In this document: piece after piece, positions 57-58,971 of the stretch
Position numbering within the stretch: the first letter of the stretch is position 1
How the letters are laid out: the number at the start of each line of letters is the position of its first letter
Origin: Eledone cirrhosa
Lineage: Eukaryota
Length of the DNA: 64,000 bases
Assembly (NCBI GenBank): GCA_964016885.1
Contig: OZ024746.1
Span: forward strand, 1,922,001 to 1,986,000
Direction of reading: 5' to 3'
Program-made: the position numbers and the translations under genes
Notes under the pieces: generated by a model
The model's input: the letters and a program-made list of their open reading frames with translations, nothing else
Told to the model about the DNA's origin: nothing
Databases searched by the model: none

Positions 57-1166
57 GAAAACAGAACCCAGATCCCCTCAGGGAAATGGCCTTGCTCAGT
101 ATGTAGGAAAGGTGTAGGTAGGAACTCCATTCTCTGCCCCAAATGCAAACAATGGGTACACAAGAGATGTAGCGGGATCTCAGGAAGCTTAATTAAGAAT
201 GTAGGATTCACATGCAGCAGCTGTGCTGAAACAGCAAGCAAACAGCCACAGGAAACAAGTACCACCAATCTCTGGGAGGGCCCTGTAGAAACAGTAGACA
301 GCTTCTGCTACCTAGGTGACCGAATTAGCAACGGAGGTGGGTGCTCAGAAAGTACAATAACTAGGGTAAGAACGGGATGGAAGAAGTTTAGGGAACTACT
401 ACCACTGCTAGCTGCAAAAGGCTTCTCCCTCAGAATGAAAGGCAGACTGTATGATGCGTGTATCCGAACAGCGATGTTGCATGGTAGTGAGACCTGGGCG
501 CTGAAGGTGGAAGACTTACGTAGATTAGAGAGAAACAAAGCCTGCATGCTCCGATGGATGTGTAACAGTAATATACGTGAACGACAAAGCATAAAGGAAT
601 TGAGAGAGAGACTGAGCATAAGAGGAATCAAATGCTGCGTGCAGGAGAGGCGGTTACGCTGGTATGGACATGTGATGCGTATGAAGGATGACAGCTGCAT
701 AAAAAGGTGCAGAGCACTAGAAGTTGATGGAAACCGCGGAGTGGGGAGACCCAAGATGACTTGGGATGAGGTGATAAAAGCCGACCTTACCCAACTACAC
801 CTCTCAAAGTCAATGACACACGACCGTGACTTCTGGCGTCACACAGTAATACAGGGTACCCGACCTCCCATGGGTACATGCTGAAGCATATAAACAATAT
901 GCCCCCCCCCCCCCACCGCAAGGTGGTCGTGGAGGTGCCACGGCAAAAAAGCACCCAGCCCACACTGTAAAGTGGACGTGTAGGCGCCACGAAAAAGCAC
1001 CCAGCACTCACTGTAAATGAGGTTGGTGTTAGGAAGGGCATCCAGCTGTAGAAATCAAGCCAGATCAGTTCCTGTATGAGCAAGGCATGGTCAGCCGACC
1101 AGACACTGCCCACAACAGGACAACCCGTCTAACCCATGCTAGCGTGGAAGAACGGACGTAAAACGG

Positions 1167-3880: not shown

Positions 3881-5523
3881 CAACATTTTGAAAGAATAAA
3901 AAATTTCCAACAAATTTTTAATATGTTTTTATCTCTTATTATGTTAATTTAAACCATAATATTTTAAATACCAAAATGTAAAAGAAAATTCATTGAAATA
4001 ATCCACACTGACAGCCAGCCAGAATTTAATAATTAGTAGATCGTTGGGGTCATTTCAACATTTTATATGCTCATGTTTTAGTTCTAATGTGATTCCAGAC
4101 TGTACATTAAATTCCTGCTTTTTTAAGAATATATAGTTATGGCTTCTTGACTGCAGCCTTATTATATTTCAAGGTTCCTTACCTCCGGTATAAATGGTTG
4201 AAAAGTGAGACGGGATTACGAAGGAAGTGTATTTTAATGATTATACAATGAAAATTTAGAGTTAGTAAAAATCTTTCATTGGGTTGGAATAAAGTTTTGT
4301 TTAAAAAACCAGCATATCTACTACAACAGTCATGTTATGTACATTAAATATTACTGATAGATATCCAACAATGGACTACATTAATTGCAGAGAAATCTGA
4401 TAGTTTATACAGCAAATTAATTACTGAACCAGTGTTCTCCCTTAAAGAAAACATTGAAACTAATCCAATATCTTGTTTTTATTGGTTTTGGAAACAAACA
4501 TGAGATATCATATTTGTTACAACAAAAATTGTTGCCTTTAAACCGATATATAACAATATTGTTAAACTATTTTTAGTCTTATATTAAAACTAGGATCAGA
4601 AAGAATGTTGGCCCATTACATAGACCAGTGATGTAGACCTTGTGTGTTGCAGGAATTATTAAGTCTACTGATATTTTTTAATATTTAGGAAATTAAAATA
4701 GCTATTTAATTAATTATATAGTTACATCATCATCATGAACTACATATTCTCTTTTCAAATGTATCTGAAACTTTAAGTAACATGTTGACAAGATTCTACA
4801 ACCTAAATATAAAATATTTATCAGTATTTTCTCTATATACTATTTTCATAAAATTAATTGCTGGTGGCAGGATAAAATATAGCCAATCCACAGTGAAGTG
4901 GTTGGTGATAGGAAGAATACCAAGCCAGAAAACTTCTGCCAAAGAACCATGACTAGCTCAACATACACTACTAACAAAAAAATGTGAATAGAGGACTAAC
5001 ACTCACCATGTTAGCGCTGCGCATGGTTGTGGGGGTAACTAGCCTAGCCAAGTGTGAGAACCTCGCAATCATCAAGCAATCACACATTCCTTTTCAGATA
5101 CAGAGAGCAGTTATCAAAAGATGGACCAACCACCAAGAGACTACCCTCCCCCAATACTTTAAGGTAACCTAATTCAGGGCAGCCACTGACAACTGATAGT
5201 ACACTAAAAGGTAGATTGGGTAAAATTATAGAGAAGCAGAGACTAGTTGACGTGGACTTTGTACAAGATGTGAGTTGAAGGAGGTACATCAGCCAGACTC
5301 TTCACAGTGTAGATATTATGATGGTGTAGGTAGAGTAGGCATCTTACTAGAAGTGGAGAGATTAAGTAATTGAGATAGTTATAGTAAATTATAGAATTAT
5401 CAAGCTCAGAATAGCCATAAGCAGCAGTTATCTCAATGAATGCACCACATTCAGGGTTAAGTAAAGAACTGATCACTTACTATTCAGCATTAACTACAGA
5501 TTATCTAACATTTATACAAGTTC

Positions 5524-5700
5524 ACTGGTATGGACATGTGATGCATATGGAAGATGACAACTGTATACAGAAATGCAGAGGCTTCTCAGTTGATGGGATT
5601 TGTGGAAGTAAACTGAAAAAGACTTGGGTGAAGGCTGACCCCAGGAAGCTGAACCTTATGGCAGGGATGACAAAAGTCCTACGATTATTGGCAACTATGT
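5524..5700 (+). mobile_element. Degenerate RTE 3' ORF fragment
   Basis: WYGHVMHMEDDNCIQKCRG resembles the C-terminus of the RTE at 57-884. Confidence 0.75.
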
Positions 5701-7088
5701 AGTAGGATGTGACATACAAACTGTTTATATTTCACTCTTCCATTGTTGCTCCTTAGTAAGTATTCTCATCACTTTTTCCTACATTACTCCCACCTTTTCA
5801 CCTGTCTTTCATCCCGCCACTCTTGTCATACAGCTGTGTCTCATCTTAACTTCCTCTTTTCTCAGTCCTGAACATGGTTGTCTTGGGACTAGGTCCCTTC
5901 TCTCCCCAAGTGCCACTATAAAATGTACACTTTGGTTCTTTAACACCACCTGGCCCTTGGTTACATTTAGTGAGAACCACTGTTGCAAGCATTCAGGCCA
6001 TACTCTGATTTGCAGATACCCTCTCCTTCCCGTCTTGGAAGCCATGAAAAGAATCATAAGCATGACCCTTCTCTCACAGACTAAAAGGTAATAAATTTTA
6101 AAGAATAATAATTTAATTGCCCCCACCCCCCTATATTGAAATAACTTCTTAACACTTTCAAGTGGGTTTAATTATCAGCTGTGCTGCATTCAAAGAAAGA
6201 CTGGGGAGTGCTCACATAGAAAATACTTTATGTATGTAATTCAAAGGATCAGTTCCAATTAACAGGTCACTTAGAAACCTATTTTCCATTCTAGATTGAC
6301 ATGGTTTTGTCCCCAGATTCCAAATCCCAACGTTGATATCTGAAATTGATGGTTTAATTCTAAATAGTAAATAGAGAAGAAGCTGCCCCCACAAAATATA
6401 GCAGAATATTGTTACTATGTTAAAGTAACATAATTATATAACCTTCAATTAATCAATTAGTTTTCCTTGTTTATTATGAGATGAATTTTAAAGACTAATT
6501 CAATTTCCATTAAAATCTCCTAGAAATCAGTAATGGTAACATAAGTTAGTAAAGAGGCAGTTAACTGGTTAGATAGAACATTCACACACAACTAGATGCT
6601 CTACACCTTAACAACAGCCTGTGTTTTTGAAAACAGTAACAATATTGTTACCATCACTATTAATTAAACGTAGCTGTGATGACTGATGAGATAGAAACAA
6701 AATAACAAGAAAAACAAAGTCATTATTGATGCGTGTGTGCATGTGCATGCATGTGTGTTAGTGTAAACACACAGCCTAGATGTGTGGAGTTGCTTGATAA
6801 CCTAAAATCTTTTACTTTCACTTCAAACAAAAAGTCCTTTGAAGAAGTTCCTCTTCAACCTCCCATTGATAGTTTCCTTCTCCCCCTCCCCCAAGTCCAC
6901 TTCTTTTTACTTAATGAATTCCATCCAAACAGAATCTAGTTATGGAGGATATATATAAGGATTGTGTGTGTACTGTCAACACAGTCACATTTTCATTTTG
7001 AAGGAGAGGGGGGGGGGGGTGCAGCAGGAAACTATTAACAAAATAACTAATTCAAAAATATTTCCCAGTAAACAAGAACAGTGTTACT

Positions 7089-29901: not shown

Positions 29902-31131
29902 TTAATAGGAAATAATGTTTGTTGATGTTATTTTCTGGAACAATCCTAGTTTAGAGGGTACGGTGGTATTTCTATGTCCTGTTTTTGACACGTGGTTCAT
30001 ATTTCTGTATTTTACATTTAGATGCTGGCCTTTATAATGCCAACCATGCAGCCATGACAATAGAAAATTAACTATATCATAGCTAATTAAACTGAGACTA
30101 TATCTTAAAAAAATTGTACATTTTGAATATTTGGGTTAATAGTTCAGATACATAACCACATCAAACTAGACAAATATTAACTATTATTTCTTTATTGCAA
30201 AAGGTAAGAGAACTTATAACTGAACAATAACTAGATTGTATTAAACTTATCTTGTTAGTTATAAAAATCAAATAAAGCTACAATAAAGAACATATTACCA
30301 ATAATATAAGCTACCATTTATTATAGAAATATAAATTACTGTTTTCTTATAGACAACAAACTTTGGATTTGTAGGGCTTACAAAGCATTCATGTTAGTAG
30401 GAACAAATGGAATGCTTGATTTCTTACATAGGCACAACATATGGGATTTATAGGGGAAAAGGAAATAAGAAATTGCAAGGCATTCGTGCTTTCTTCAAGG
30501 AAGTCTTTTTCAAAACTAAATAAATAAAAAATAGCCCCAACAAGGAATTAAAACCATATTACTAACCCAGTTCACTAATATACCATATATCTTCTCTACC
30601 AGATTCACTTACTTTGTATTTATTTTAAATAATGTAAACATTTTATCACAACAAATGAACTTAAACACTAACTTTACATTATACACTTCTCTCACAGTTC
30701 TTTAATTATTTTAGTAATTCCCATCTCCTTTCACCCTTATCTTCAATGTACTTTAAGATATATCTTCTTTAATTCAAAGATTAACAACTTCTTTGGTACA
30801 TGGTAAACATGGAGACAGATCATACAAGTAAAACATTTCAGTATCAAATGTTTGTACTATCATAATTCCAAGTCACAAATGGAGTATCTACACATTTAAA
30901 TAAGACCACCTTATCTGAGCAAATATAACAGAGATTAATACTATTTTCCTGAAATAAATAGCGGTTGTTTGGATAATATATATGCCTTCCAATAAGGGTC
31001 CAACTGGGTCAGATAATAAAGATGTTTATCCTACACTTTAGTTGCTAGCACATTTCTTTATATCTTAACTACCAACACACACGCTAATTATAAGCAAATT
31101 AGTATATCCATTTCAGAATAATACAAGTAAA

Positions 31132-31350
31132 AAAAGGAACGATCGACTTTCGTCAAATCGGACCGAGGGAACAATGTTTCCGTTGGTCTTTCCAATTGCT
31201 AATACTATCTACCGGTCGCAACTCCAGGTAGAAGGAGCAACGTGAAATAAAGTGTCTTGCTCAAGGACATAACGCATCGCCTGATCCAGGAATCAAACTC
31301 ACAACCTTACGATTGCGAATCCAATTCCCTAACCACTCAGCCACACGCCT
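31132..31350 (-). mobile_element. tRNA-derived CORE-SINE with 10-bp TSD
   Basis: Minus strand: A box TGGCTGAGTGG, B box GAGTTTGATTCC, CORE-like GTCCTTGAGCAAGACACTTTA; TSD tacaagtaaa at 31122-31131 and 31351-31360. Confidence 0.85.
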
Positions 31351-31411
31351 TACAAGTAAATGGGTATATACATCGATCCAATACGTGTTTCCTTGAGGTT
31401 GTTTGATGTAC

Positions 31412-31460
31412 ACACCTTCTGATGAAGACCCAACTAGGTCTGAAAATCAATTAAAGGTGT
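31412..31460 (+). ncRNA. Minimal type I hammerhead ribozyme
   Basis: ACACCTT-CTGATGA-AGACC-caacta-GGTCT-GAAA-A-tcaa-T-T-A^AAGGTGT: stem I 7 bp, stem II 5 bp, stem III 2 bp, full catalytic core, UUA triplet. Confidence 0.82.
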
Positions 31461-31512
31461 TTAACATTTTTTTCAATTTACAGGGAAATTCCTATTTTCT
31501 AGTATGTTTACA

Positions 31513-31690
31513 TTGGCAGCAACGGTAGAGTGTCAGACACCATTATGTGCAGCATAGTTATGGCCCTTTACGTTCTAAGTTCAAATCACGCCGAGGTTAG
31601 CTTTGCCTTTCATCCTTACTTGGTCAATAAAAAGTAGCAGTAATGTACTGAGGTAAGTGCTGGCTTTGTACCAACAGTAGAAACAATTAT
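31513..31690 (+). mobile_element. SINE S1, diverged
   Basis: A and B boxes, core and gtagaaacaattat end. Confidence 0.85.
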
Positions 31691-31729
31691 ATATAAAGTT
31701 GTGTCGTATTGACATACAGCGCTTCTTGG

Positions 31730-31965
31730 CCATTTTAAGCCTGGCAGAGTCCATCTCCAAGTCTGAGTAGATTTCTTCCAGAGAGAGATAGAAAGCGAGA
31801 GAGAAGTGAGAAAGAGATATAGAGTACGTATCGACCCCAGTATTAGACTGGTACTTTTCTTTATCAACCTCAAAAGGATGAAAGACAAAGTTGACCTAGG
31901 CAGGATTTGAACTCAGAGAGTCAGAAGGAATACCATAAAGTATCTGACGTAACGACTACCAATTC
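31730..31965 (-). mobile_element. S1-related SINE subfamily with a (GA)-rich 3' part
   Basis: ctggtactt..tttatc.acc...aaggatgaaag.caaagttgacct.ggc.ggatttgaactcag; a related plus-strand copy lies near 52548-52765. Confidence 0.65.
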
Positions 31966-51245: not shown

Positions 51246-51854
51246 TCATCATCATCATCATCATCACCGTTTTACGTCCGTTCTTCCACGCTAGCATGGG
51301 TTAGACGGGTTGTCCTGTTGTGGGCAGTGTCTGGTCGGCTGACCATGCCTTGCTCATACAGGAACTGATCTGGCTTGATTTCTACAGCTGGATGCCCTTC
51401 CTAACACCAACCTCATTTACAGTGAGTGCTGGGTGCTTTTTCGTGGCGCCTACACGTCCACTTTACAGTGTGGGCTGGGTGCTTTTTTGCCGTGGCACCT
51501 CCACGACCACCTTGCGGTGGGGGGAGTGGGGGCATATTGTTTATATGCTTCAGCATGTACCCATGGGAGGTCGGGTACCCTGTATTACTGCGTGACGCCA
51601 GAAGTCACGGTCGTGTGTCATTGTCTTTGAGAGGTGTAGTTGGGTAAGGTCGGCTTTTATCACCTCATCCCAAGTCATCTTGGGTCTCCCCACTCCACGG
51701 TTTCCATCAACTTCTAGTGCTCTGCACCTTTTTATGCAGCTGTCATCCTTCATACGCATCACATGTCCATACCAGCGTAACCGCCTTTCCTGCACGCAGC
51801 ATTTGATTCCTCTTATGCTCAGTCTCTCTCTCAATTCCTTTATGCTTTGTCGTT
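51246..51854 (-). mobile_element. 5'-truncated RTE, near-identical to about 580-1190
   Basis: Same ORF end (…IQGTRPPMGTC*), 3' UTR and (atc)n tail. Confidence 0.93.
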
Positions 51855-53135
51855 GTGGAAGTAAAACAATTCAAAAGGTACCACAACACTTTGACAGCAC
51901 TAGGAAACTAAGAATATTTTAAATATATTATGAATGATGCCAGTCCTGTATAGTCCCTCAAACACTCTACAATAAACTTATTTAAAATAGTTTCACTTCA
52001 TCAGTGACTACACAGTCCACAACTACAGACATCAAATTAGTCAAATAGAGAGGATTTTAAGTGGTTGTTCGGCTTGATACATATAGTAGCCAAATCCCCC
52101 TCAAATCATGTACTACAATCTTATACATGGATACTATAAATCGGAAAATAAGATAAAATGGTCATGAATGTTATTAATCAGAGGTCAGTTAAATCAGGGC
52201 AGATCTGTGACTAAACAAGAGATATAACCACAATAGCCTACAATACTAATCAGAGTAGACAAATAAAAAAGATATACACCAAATATTGTAGCAGCATCAA
52301 TCATCTCTCATCAGCTCTAGGGTTAATTACCACACTACAACAGAGTTCATGTTTTGGCCCACTTCTGCTGAACATAGAACAGACTAGATAATGGAAATGA
52401 TACATGCCAATATGTATAACTTACCTCTAAGCAGCCAAAGAAGAGAAAGAAGTGGAGAGAGAACACAGTCCTTAGAGCATAGGTTAGATGCCTCAGTATT
52501 TGTTTCAGCTCTCTAAATTCAGCCTTTCACCCTCTTGGGGTCAATAATTGGCAGTCATTAAAATGTCAGATAGAATGCATTGCAGTATTCATTCTAACTC
52601 TCTTTGCTCTGAGTTTAAACCCCAGAGGTCAACTCTGCCTTCCATCCTTTCATGGTCAATAAATAAAGTAGCAGGCCAGTACTAGGACCAATTCTTCCTC
52701 TCTATCTCTGTTTTACTTCTCTCTCAATCTTCAATCTTTTCTCTGGAAGAAACTATGTTTAGACCAGGAGAAATGGATTGATAGGGTTGTTAGAAAGTCA
52801 GATAAGATGTTTTGCAGTATATGATATGGTTTATGTGCTCTGAGTTGATGTACTGCTTCCTCCTCTCAGGAGTTACAACCAGCAATGGAAAAAAACAAAC
52901 AAACACTGGAAACAGTTTCCTTGAACTGATCTAATCCTCCCACCCATCATTTAATGCCATTTTCCACGCAAGCATGGGGTCACACAAGACAAGCTAGGTC
53001 GGAGAACCATGTTTTGCTCACACAAAACTGATTTAGGCTTGGTTTCTATGGCTGGATGCCAATGACTTTACAGTGGACAGGGCGCTCGTTGTCGTGGTAC
53101 CAAGATGACCATATACATTCAACACTCTCATATGT

Positions 53136-56312: not shown

Positions 56313-58971
56313 CTTTATGTGGTTTCTCATTATCCTCAGCTTTGCCTGAATCCACATCGTGTAAAAATTCCAACGCAGTAGAAAACCTATTCTGTTTACT
56401 AGACCCGGGTTCAAGCTCACGGGGAGAAAACCTATGTTCTATAATAATTCTAGGGGGATCCGTGTGACGACGTTTATCCCTTAACTCAGACAACTGTTGA
56501 GGGTGTATTGAAACAGGAGATTCGCGACCAGTACCCTCATCAATCGACTTATTCGTTCTCCGGGTAATTGTAAAGGTTGGTTTGGAAACCCCACCAGTAA
56601 AACGGTGTTCAATAATAATGTGTGAAGGTTCTTCTGCAATATTAGAGTCAGCAGTAGCACCAGTAGTGGCTGGGTTATTAGATATAGGGACTTCGTCGAT
56701 GTGTAACACTGTAGGGGGTACACTTAAATCAGACTCTTCTCTTTTCTCGTCTTTTAAATTGGATAATCGCTTGTTAATGCTGCCAACACTGTCTGTCAAT
56801 GATAAGGGGCTATCAGTTCTGAAATTAGATGGAATTGGAGAGGATACATGTTCGATTTTTAATTCCAAAGGCTTTTTCTGTGAACTTGGGCTTTGGTGCC
56901 CATCAGGAGGAGTATGTGAATGCCTTGGTACCAGTGGTGGGAGCGGGGGCCGTCGTTGAACGACGATTTCAATCGGTTTGCTCACAGGACTTTCATTTGT
57001 TTCACTATGTGAAGTTGAAACATCTTCAGAAGTTCTTTTAGGATTCTGTATGGCCAAAAACGTAGGGTTCTGAGATATTTCACGAGGTGTACCTTGCAGT
57101 TCATTAACATCGGTCAAAAAACCACTGTTTCTTTTGATTTTGTTAAATAAATAATCCCAATCACTGGCTGATCCACGATTTCGTCGTTCGATTTTTTCCT
57201 GACTTTCAAACTTGGGGAAAAGATCAGCAAACAGATCGCAATTTGAACGTCTGTTAAAATCATCGGCAAAAGCTCGTGATCTTCTCCGCAATTTGAAGTT
57301 AGCAAACTCTCTTTCGAATTCCCTAAAATCTTCGTCATTATCAAAGAAATCTGAAAAGGTATCATTTTTTCCAGAATTTTTCGGTACTGCAATATCTTGC
57401 CTAGTTCCAACAGAACCGTGTTTAACTCTTAATTCAGTCAGCGGAGTGTGTTCTCTAGGACAAACACTATTATCCTGTTGAATATTAATTTTCACAGGAA
57501 TCAAACCTCGCCCTTCACTCTCAGCATCACGCTGTCTATCTTCAGTAAGAAACACTTCGTCTTTATCTTCATTGTCCTCTATCCGACCAAGTCGACCGAA
57601 CACATTGAAGTCACTGCCGAGGTTGGCAAACTCCCGATCGAACTCCTGGAAATTTTCATCACTTTTGAAAAAGTCCATTAACATGTCATGTGAGGCTGGT
57701 GCGTTTCTGGATGACGACGATAAATATTTGAGAGGATGTGAAGAGTTTGATGAAAGTCTTCTTATACTTGTGATTCTGGCTTTATTACTACTATTGCTTG
57801 GCGCCGACGAGGAAGCTATACAGGTGTTATCACGGTGGGGTTGGTTTGATGACGAAGTTGCTGCTGAAGAACGTAAATTCGAAGAAGCAGTTGGTGAAGT
57901 AGTTAGAGGAGCAGGTAAAATATCAGTACCAAAAATTCTATCCGGGTTACGTGTAGAGAAAGTTGCCTCACGTACTTCTAAACAATTCGCATTTTGATCA
58001 TTACAGATATTATTGTTATTTCGTTGGTTCTGATGGTTAATACTGGTTAAAATTGGACTACTTCTCGGATTGTTGCCAAGTCTGTTATTTTTAATAAGTT
58101 CTTCTTCACTATTCACTGGCACTCCACTCTGTGAAGATGCTTGGTAGTCGTAGTCAGATACATTTTCCTGAAGACTTTCTTTCAGGGACTGGAAGTTTTT
58201 TAATTCTTGTTTAAATTCTTCAAAATCCTGTTCGTCCTTAAATACGTAACTTAAATTTCTATAAGTGTTCGAATCATTGAGATCTGTGTATTTCAAATGG
58301 AGAATACTGTTTGGAGAAAATGTCGTCCTGTCACAACTGTTAATCTGAGTATAATAAGCACCACAAGAACTGCTACTTCCAGTATCGACAGTAGAACTAC
58401 CAATTTCATGTACCGGTCGACTGTGCAAGCTACATGGAAAATTCGCTGTACATGCAGCTCCACTCTTTGTATCTATCTCATCATTGACTAACAGTGGACA
58501 GCTTTTAATGGGATTATTTGGAGTGTTTGAGGGGTGAGGATCTGTGTGTTCGGCTACTACATCAAAGTTCTGACTTGACAGAGAGCAAGCATTTTCTTTA
58601 CGTGAATATAGTATATTTTGTTCCACTGGGCTAGACCTTTCACCACACTGTAATCCATAGGAGCAACAACGGTCTGTGGGTGTTTTACTGTTAATCTCAC
58701 TATGACAGTTATTATTACTACAATTAACATCAATAATAGAAGTGTTGTTATAATTATCAACAGCAGTAACAGAATCACAACAGTCACTGCTTGTTATAGT
58801 TTCATTTTTGTTAATACAATTAGCAACTGAGCTGGTAGTAGCATTACAGCCGCAACCATTAGAACTTTTTTTCTTATAATTATTAGTATCTGTATGTTGA
58901 TGATGATGCTTTCTCGTAGGTAACCGAAACTGGTAAGAACGACGGCTAAAATATCCACTATCTTCACCCAT
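56313..58971 (-). CDS. Large coding exon (886 codons + 1 nt) of an uncharacterised, probably disordered Ser/Asn-rich protein; the gene continues in unidentified downstream exons
   Basis: 2.9 kb non-repetitive ORF in AT-rich DNA; ATG in good context (GGGATGG); AAAG|GTAAG donor at 56313/56312, after which the ORF runs into (CA)n; internal protein-level repeats with diverged DNA. Confidence 0.85.

What the first reader, a model, noticed from the sequence alone, without database searches (positions are those of the whole stretch)
31412..31460. Intact, solitary minimal type I hammerhead ribozyme
Seen in sequence: stem I ACACCTT (31412-18) pairs with AAGGTGT (31454-60), the core is CTGATGA (31419-25), stem II AGACC/GGTCT closes a CAACTA loop, then GAAA (31442-45), a 2-bp stem III and a UUA triplet. 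Predicted cleavage is after 31453. The stem III region AATCAATT is one change from the palindrome AATCGATT. Established knowledge: minimal hammerheads with a short palindromic stem III occur in Penelope-like element repeats and metazoan non-LTR retrozymes and cleave best as dimers. No second copy and no Penelope ORF is visible in this window. Inference: it is either a relic of an unannotated Penelope/retrozyme family or a retained self-cleaving site, antisense to the minus-strand gene.
Basis: partly seen in the sequence, partly recalled or inferred. Interest (0 to 1): 0.75.

Follow-up and report, generated by a model that had tools for sequence, protein, structure and literature searches.

The report
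Fossil hammerhead retrozyme with Penelope ends
This is a real hammerhead self-cutting-RNA motif, but it is one decayed copy of an old 356-base repeat scattered through this animal genome, likely pasted by a Penelope-type jumping-gene enzyme, and this copy is predicted to cut poorly or not at all.

Summary
The motif is real: stems and core are as described, and 0 of 300 shuffles gave an equal match. It is not solitary. It belongs to an old dispersed 356-bp non-coding repeat (1,253-2,841 search candidates; copies average 84% identity to the family majority), and a degenerate twin lies 430 bp upstream in this window. The unit closes on itself, as in non-LTR retrozymes. Copies are 5'-truncated, often head-to-head, flanked by TA repeats, and end at two sites about 38 nt apart, the Penelope 'tail' footprint. 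Stems I and II covary across copies. The family's stem III is the palindrome AATCGATT; this copy has the CpG-decayed form, predicted to break dimer pairing. About 29% of copies (10 of 34) keep an intact core, as neutral decay predicts. The copy is split by a SINE and lies antisense in an intron of a RASSF-like gene. No autonomous partner was found; cleavage and expression are untested. Earlier scan notes report the same design in younger families of this genome. Verdict: an ordinary relic, a new member of a known kind.

The parts
31412..31460 (+). Type I hammerhead motif: helix I 7 bp, core, helix II 5 bp with CAACUA loop, helix III 2 bp; predicted cut after 31453
   Evidence: covariation across 49 copies
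31445..31452 (+). Helix III region AATCAATT, CpG-decayed form of the family palindrome AATCGATT; predicted self-duplex +1.6 vs -6.1 kcal/mol
31403..31411 (+). 5' side of the distal helix I and the UAC bulge; this copy has a 4-nt deletion here relative to the family
31461..31467 (+). 3' side of the distal helix I (TTAACAT here; TTATCAT in 23 of 49 copies)
30963..31030 (+). Degenerate second hammerhead (unit positions 296-12), core decayed to CCAATAA; joined to unit position 142 at a shared TTTATC
31025..31124 (+). Repeat unit positions 142-249 (79% identity to family majority), upstream of the SINE
31122..31131 (+). Left target-site duplication TACAAGTAAA of the SINE insertion
   Evidence: sequence
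31132..31350 (-). High-copy SINE-like repeat inserted into the retrozyme copy; tRNA-like A/B boxes judged by eye (recalled consensus), no tRNA call by ARAGORN
31351..31360 (+). Right target-site duplication TACAAGTAAA
31359..31513 (+). Repeat unit positions 258-356 and 1-60 (87% identity), holding the hammerhead; the family's normal 3' end (146 or 184) is missing
56313..58971 (-). Large exon of a RASSF-like gene (RA and SARAH domains in homologues); its next exon lies just outside the window's left end, so the finding is intronic and antisense
   Evidence: GT donor visible in the match listed

Best explanation
The motif is the hammerhead of one decayed, SINE-split copy of an old 356-bp non-coding repeat, likely a non-autonomous retrozyme that a Penelope-type reverse transcriptase/endonuclease pasted around the genome, and this copy is predicted to be catalytically weak or dead. 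Shown: the repeat family, its self-closing 356-bp unit, two preferred 3' ends about 38 nt apart, head-to-head arms, TA flanks, covarying stems and neutral decay. Inferred: master copies were transcribed as tandem RNA; two hammerheads paired through the palindromic helix III and cut out monomers that were ligated into circles; a PLE enzyme nicked AT-rich DNA and began reverse transcription inside the RNA at unit positions about 146 and 184, reading through the cut site on a circle or an uncut tandem transcript. After insertion the copy lost its CpG palindrome, its upstream twin and its 3' end.
For: Family: 1,253 and 2,841 first-look candidates; 59 exact matches to a 35-place intact-core pattern, control 0. 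Closed unit: sequence downstream of the hammerhead recurs upstream, mostly at a period of 345-359 bp; unit 356 bp, 33% GC; 19 segments longer than one unit in 80 unique loci, longest 662 nt. Penelope footprint: 63 of 116 segment 3' ends fall in positions 137-156 or 175-189 (10% of the unit) against 18 of 116 5' ends; 17 head-to-head junctions in 80 loci, 7 of them with one short and one long outer end; many ends run into TA repeats. In 27 fresh loci, 12 ended at 137-156 and 11 at 173-189. PMC11167929 ties a 30-40 bp tail to two internal RT start sites and AT-rich targets. Fold selected in the masters: helix I pair 4 is C-G in 27 and U-A in 13, helix II pair 4 is U-A in 20 and C-G in 17 of 49; 0 of 500 shuffles reach the covariation score. 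Decay: mean identity 83.8%, best 92.9%; intact core in 6 of 21 and 4 of 13 copies, 20-33% expected. Autonomous RT+GIY-YIG PLEs exist in the genome.
Against: No autonomous PLE sharing this unit was found (36 GIY-YIG loci; flanks of 162 segments), but only 150 of 10,596 GIY-YIG candidates were scored. No array longer than about two units was seen, whereas retrozymes are defined as tandem repeats. Circular RNA, cleavage and expression were not observed. The end statistics depend on the queries: those reach to or past the first end site and force ends at or beyond it. The covariation is mostly two inherited subfamily changes, and the count of pairs with double changes is not above shuffles (111 of 500). 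The short-long pattern holds in only 7 of 17 inverted loci.
Confidence: 0.8

Rival explanations
1. The repeat is the pseudo-LTR plus tail of an extinct autonomous Penelope-like element whose ORF-bearing copies I did not sample; the apparent closed unit would come from partial tandems.
For: All end features are those of PLEs; bioRxiv 10.64898/2026.07.22.740005 finds retrozymes homologous to pLTRs; the GIY-YIG search scored 150 of 10,596 candidates.
Against: The sequence after the tail site (184) runs straight into the sequence upstream of the hammerhead, leaving no room for an ORF. No family-specific flank was shared among 162 segments; the few shared flanks were other repeats or local duplicates. 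PLE protein matches in family loci were sparse and not adjacent in a common arrangement.
Confidence: 0.12
2. This particular copy was retained as a working self-cleaving site, acting on an antisense or intronic transcript of the RASSF-like locus.
For: Core and both main stems are intact and all Watson-Crick; only 3 of 21 unselected copies have core plus stems.
Against: An intact core is expected in about a quarter of copies. The palindrome is broken (self-duplex +1.6 kcal/mol; -1.3 with an intact partner), the twin is dead, and the lowest-energy fold pairs the core with helix III (-15.7 vs -8.0 kcal/mol for the hammerhead fold). The motif is antisense to the pre-mRNA.
Confidence: 0.04
3. The repeat is a SINE-like element moved by an ordinary LINE, or a dispersed satellite spread at the DNA level, with the hammerhead as a passenger.
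For: The genome is rich in LINEs and SINEs; inverted 5' arms also arise by twin priming in LINE insertions (recalled).
Against: No poly(A) or simple-repeat tail of its own; 3' ends lie at two internal sites of a closed unit; short-long end pairs in inverted copies; copies are dispersed over many contigs rather than arrayed.
Confidence: 0.04

Closest known systems
Metazoan non-LTR retrozymes (Cervera and de la Pena 2020, PMC7229834; mussel 350-390 bp repeats, axolotl HHR_Amex2)
   Same: Non-coding unit of 356 bp, low GC, one type I hammerhead per unit, 2-bp helix III with a 4-nt loop, co-occurring PLEs.
   Different: Dispersed truncated copies of at most about two units instead of long arrays; no young copies; circular RNA not shown here; cephalopods not mentioned in the passages read ('octopus' 0 hits).
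Non-LTR retrozymes as non-autonomous PLE derivatives (Li, Clavereau, Pollet 2026, bioRxiv 10.64898/2026.07.22.740005)
   Same: Monomer and dimer relics, proposed PLE mobilisation.
   Different: That work links them by pLTR homology in vertebrates; here the link is the insertion footprint, and no homologous pLTR was found. This locus would fail their 'active' rule (two consecutive intact hammerheads).
EN+ Penelope-like elements: tail and inverted insertions (Frangieh et al. 2024, PMC11167929; Craig et al. 2021, PMC8557442)
   Same: Two 3' ends 38 nt apart, 5' truncation, inverted partner arms, AT-rich or TA targets, hammerhead upstream of the tail, read-through of the cut site.
   Different: No ORF; the unit closes on itself.
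PLE hammerheads, minimal and small-palindromic-helix-III types (Cervera and de la Pena 2014, PMC4209133)
   Same: Short palindromic helix III predicted to need a dimer.
   Different: Not the strict min-HHR, which lacks helix III: this family has helix III and an extended helix I, closer to canonical metazoan type I.

Membership tests
Type I hammerhead ribozyme | Core CUGANGA, GAAA, UH and three helices with helix I open | tested here: met
Type I hammerhead ribozyme | Structure-preserving variation among homologues | tested here: met
   86.7% of cells paired, covariation score above 500 of 500 shuffles and above slid controls; driven by two pairs
Type I hammerhead ribozyme | Match to an Rfam hammerhead model | tested here: not met
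Type I hammerhead ribozyme | Self-cleavage | not testable with these tools
   needs an assay
min-HHR of PLEs (PMC4209133) | No helix III / loop 3 | tested here: not met
   two A-U pairs in 46 of 49 copies each; distal helix I in the family
Metazoan non-LTR retrozyme | Non-coding unit of about 150-450 bp, low GC, one type I hammerhead | tested here: met
   356 bp, 33% GC
Metazoan non-LTR retrozyme | Head-to-tail tandem organisation | tested here: inconclusive
   closed unit and partial dimers up to 662 nt; no longer arrays seen
Metazoan non-LTR retrozyme | Two consecutive intact hammerheads at the locus (active element) | tested here: not met
   upstream twin degenerate
Metazoan non-LTR retrozyme | Abundant linear and circular monomer RNA | not testable with these tools
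   no run on record as RNA; contigs only
Autonomous EN+ PLE | RT plus GIY-YIG ORF between pLTRs | tested here: not met
PLE-type insertion | Optional 30-40 bp tail (two 3' ends) | tested here: met
   family level, ends at about 146 and 184; the window copy has lost its 3' end
PLE-type insertion | Inverted 5'-truncated partner; AT-rich or TA targets | tested here: met
   17 of 80 loci; 13 junctions in 42 further loci
PLE-type insertion | Identified partner PLE sharing terminal sequence | tested here: inconclusive
   none in 36 loci; most candidates unscored

The most novel reading that the evidence does not exclude
This family is fossil evidence that a Penelope-type reverse transcriptase copies retrozyme RNA circles: it starts inside the circle at two fixed sites 146 and 184 nt past the hammerhead cut and runs through the ligated junction, leaving tail-asymmetric inverted insertions. 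I found this footprint described for PLEs but not for retrozymes in searches; a PLE as mobiliser is proposed in PMC7229834 and the 2026 preprint.
Probability: 0.45. Interest if true: 0.55.

Novelty: new member of a known kind. Interest (0 to 1): 0.27.

Why it matters
The single motif matters little: it is one of many decaying copies. The family adds a cephalopod retrozyme and names two candidate start sites for reverse transcription, which makes the open question of who mobilises animal retrozymes testable in vitro. Younger families noted elsewhere in this genome by the scan (unchecked here) would be better material for that test than this old one.

Tried and rejected
Rfam: no hammerhead match. 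Pile-up of 5' ends at the cleavage site, which would record in vivo cutting: 5 of 27 within 4 nt in a first set (1.9 expected, p about 0.04, window chosen after looking), but 1 of 27 in a replicate with the window fixed beforehand; rejected. In one search my automatic tally misplaced one locus (L206, 5' end at +23); one search uses corrected offsets. Autonomous partner: none in 20 GIY-YIG loci plus 16 long-ORF loci; no shared family flank. A 41-letter exact pattern gave 0 matches. Expression: no RNA holder listed; contigs of four coded runs laid on the locus and two on L027 cannot show level, strand or ends, so no conclusion is drawn. Rod-like circle: the majority unit folds better than shuffles (z -3.8) but a real copy only weakly (z -1.9), about 60% paired; not used. 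Distal helix I shows no double changes among the commonest pair types, so it rests on complementarity only. Scan notes on scrambled (SGC-type) hammerheads concern a different layout. Rows dropped: 11 of 91 loci as duplicates; 19 of 68 hammerhead copies with gaps; 9 partial of 30 hammerhead matches; 3 of 30 loci as self or duplicates; 18 of 60 loci as already seen.

Full report
Observation. The motif is in the sequence as described. A descriptor scan found it as the only hammerhead on either strand of the window; 300 dinucleotide shuffles gave 0.023 loose hits on average and none this good. Rfam missed it. The lowest-energy fold of the region keeps helices I and II but pairs the core (UGAU) with the helix III region; the hammerhead fold is 7.7 kcal/mol less stable.

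It is a repeat. A search of the 3.0-Gb own genome with 31340-31520 gave 1,253 candidates; the 39 best non-self places were 80-85% identical. A longer copy gave 2,841 candidates. Exact 19-mers over the cut site gave 79 matches with AATCGATT and 27 with the window's AATCAATT, controls 0. Among 59 matches to an intact-core pattern, 36 had CG, 14 CA and 9 TG (my count), the pattern of CpG decay. I infer a copy number of the order of a thousand or more; it was not counted.

The unit is closed. Sequence downstream of the hammerhead recurs upstream, mostly at a period of 345-359 bp. A working majority unit of 356 bp and 33% GC, numbered from the cut site, maps all copies. In 80 unique loci (11 of 91 dropped as duplicates) 19 segments exceed one unit, the longest 662 nt; no longer array was seen; mean identity to the majority is 83.8%, best 92.9%.

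The ends carry the Penelope footprint. Of 116 segments, 63 3' ends fall at 137-156 or 175-189, against 18 5' ends; many run into TA repeats; 17 head-to-head junctions occur, 7 with one short and one long outer end. Further loci agree (13 junctions in 42 loci; 12 and 11 of 27 ends at the two sites), though those queries force ends at or beyond the first site. PMC11167929 (parts 1-2 of 4 read) shows that a PLE protein starts reverse transcription at two internal sites that define a 30-40 bp tail, prefers AT-rich targets and does not need hammerhead cleavage. PMC8557442 (passages) describes the tail and inverted 5'-truncated copies. Most copies here read through the cut site (20 of 27 extend more than 10 nt past it); an apparent excess of 5' ends at the site (5 of 27) failed replication (1 of 27). 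The template was therefore likely a circle or an uncut tandem RNA; these cannot be told apart here.

The fold was selected in the masters, not in this copy. In 49 gap-free copies (of 68) helix I pair 4 and helix II pair 4 switch between C-G and U-A; cells paired and covariation score exceed all 500 shuffles, while the number of doubly changed pairs does not (111 of 500). The family also has a 6-bp distal helix I, a UAC bulge (37 of 49) and a CAA(U/C)UA or CAAUAA loop (41 of 49), like canonical type I motifs with loop contacts (the likeness to the schistosome loops is recalled; PMC6155905 passages, give only the general point). It is thus not the strict min-HHR of PMC4209133 (passages). In copies picked without the hammerhead, the core is intact in 6 of 21 and 4 of 13; core identity is 0.905 against 0.865 and 0.901 in the flanks. 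An intact core is ordinary survival.

The window copy. It is a decayed partial dimer: a dead hammerhead at 30963-31030, a deletion at a shared TTTATC, unit 142-249, a SINE-like insert between 10-bp duplications (31122-31131, 31351-31360), then unit 258-356 and 1-60 ending at 31513 without the normal 3' end. Its helix III cannot form the 8-bp dimer duplex (+1.6 vs -6.1 kcal/mol), and the distal helix I has a 4-nt deletion. The exon at 56313-58971 matches octopod proteins at 60-69% identity that carry RA and SARAH domains; their next exon lies about 150 bp beyond the window's left end and no other exon was found in the window. The motif is antisense in that intron and cannot cut the pre-mRNA.

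Partner. The genome holds several PLE families with RT and GIY-YIG ORFs, one of 938 aa; most carry a Cys-rich linker that I recall as Neptune-like. None of 36 loci shares this unit or has a canonical hammerhead, and flanks of 162 family segments share no family-specific sequence. Most GIY-YIG candidates were unscored.

Literature. PMC7229834 (passages and section 14) defines non-LTR retrozymes and proposes PLEs as mobilisers. The 2026 preprint (parts 1-3 of 5) links them to pLTRs in vertebrates. Searches listed no paper on a cephalopod retrozyme or on a PLE tail in retrozymes; supplements were not seen and may list such families. I reached the tail reading before seeing scan notes that report the same design in younger 310-422 nt families of this genome; those are unchecked and not independent support.

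Verdict. A real hammerhead motif in an ordinary fossil copy of a previously unnamed retrozyme family with PLE-type ends. New member of a known kind; interest 0.27.

Noticed in passing
window 31468-31482 (unit positions 13-29): A conserved T-run followed by CAATTTACAG just after the hammerhead looks like a splice acceptor; PLE pLTRs are known to carry introns.
   Followed up: no
L016, about 330 nt 3' of the family hammerhead: A different hammerhead-like motif (CTGATGA, stem with TAGC loop, G.AACG TTA), probably another PLE-linked family.
   Followed up: no
L112:2809-5622 (-), L113, L117, L119, L120, L123: A PLE family with near-identical long ORFs (938 aa open frame in L112), inverted copies and no canonical hammerhead in the fetched flanks; looks young.
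   Followed up: partly
G000:C2:414846585-414846838 and C3:117433026-117433386: An inverted pair with two intact cores, and a probable tandem pair 349 bp apart; the best natural candidates for a dimer cleavage assay.
   Followed up: no
L068-L070 (C2:252.49-252.51 Mb): One inverted insertion repeated three times at about 9.5 kb spacing, a local segmental duplication.
   Followed up: partly
window 56313-58971 (-): RASSF-like gene with a very large (about 900 aa) N-terminal exon and an intron of more than 56 kb.
   Followed up: partly
window 31514-31920: Two further high-copy SINE-like pieces in opposite orientations directly after the truncated 3' end of the copy (depth).
   Followed up: no
window 308-838, 1776-2724, 5421-5702, 51550-51922: Remnants of non-LTR retrotransposon RT genes, judged by eye from the ORF list.
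   Followed up: no
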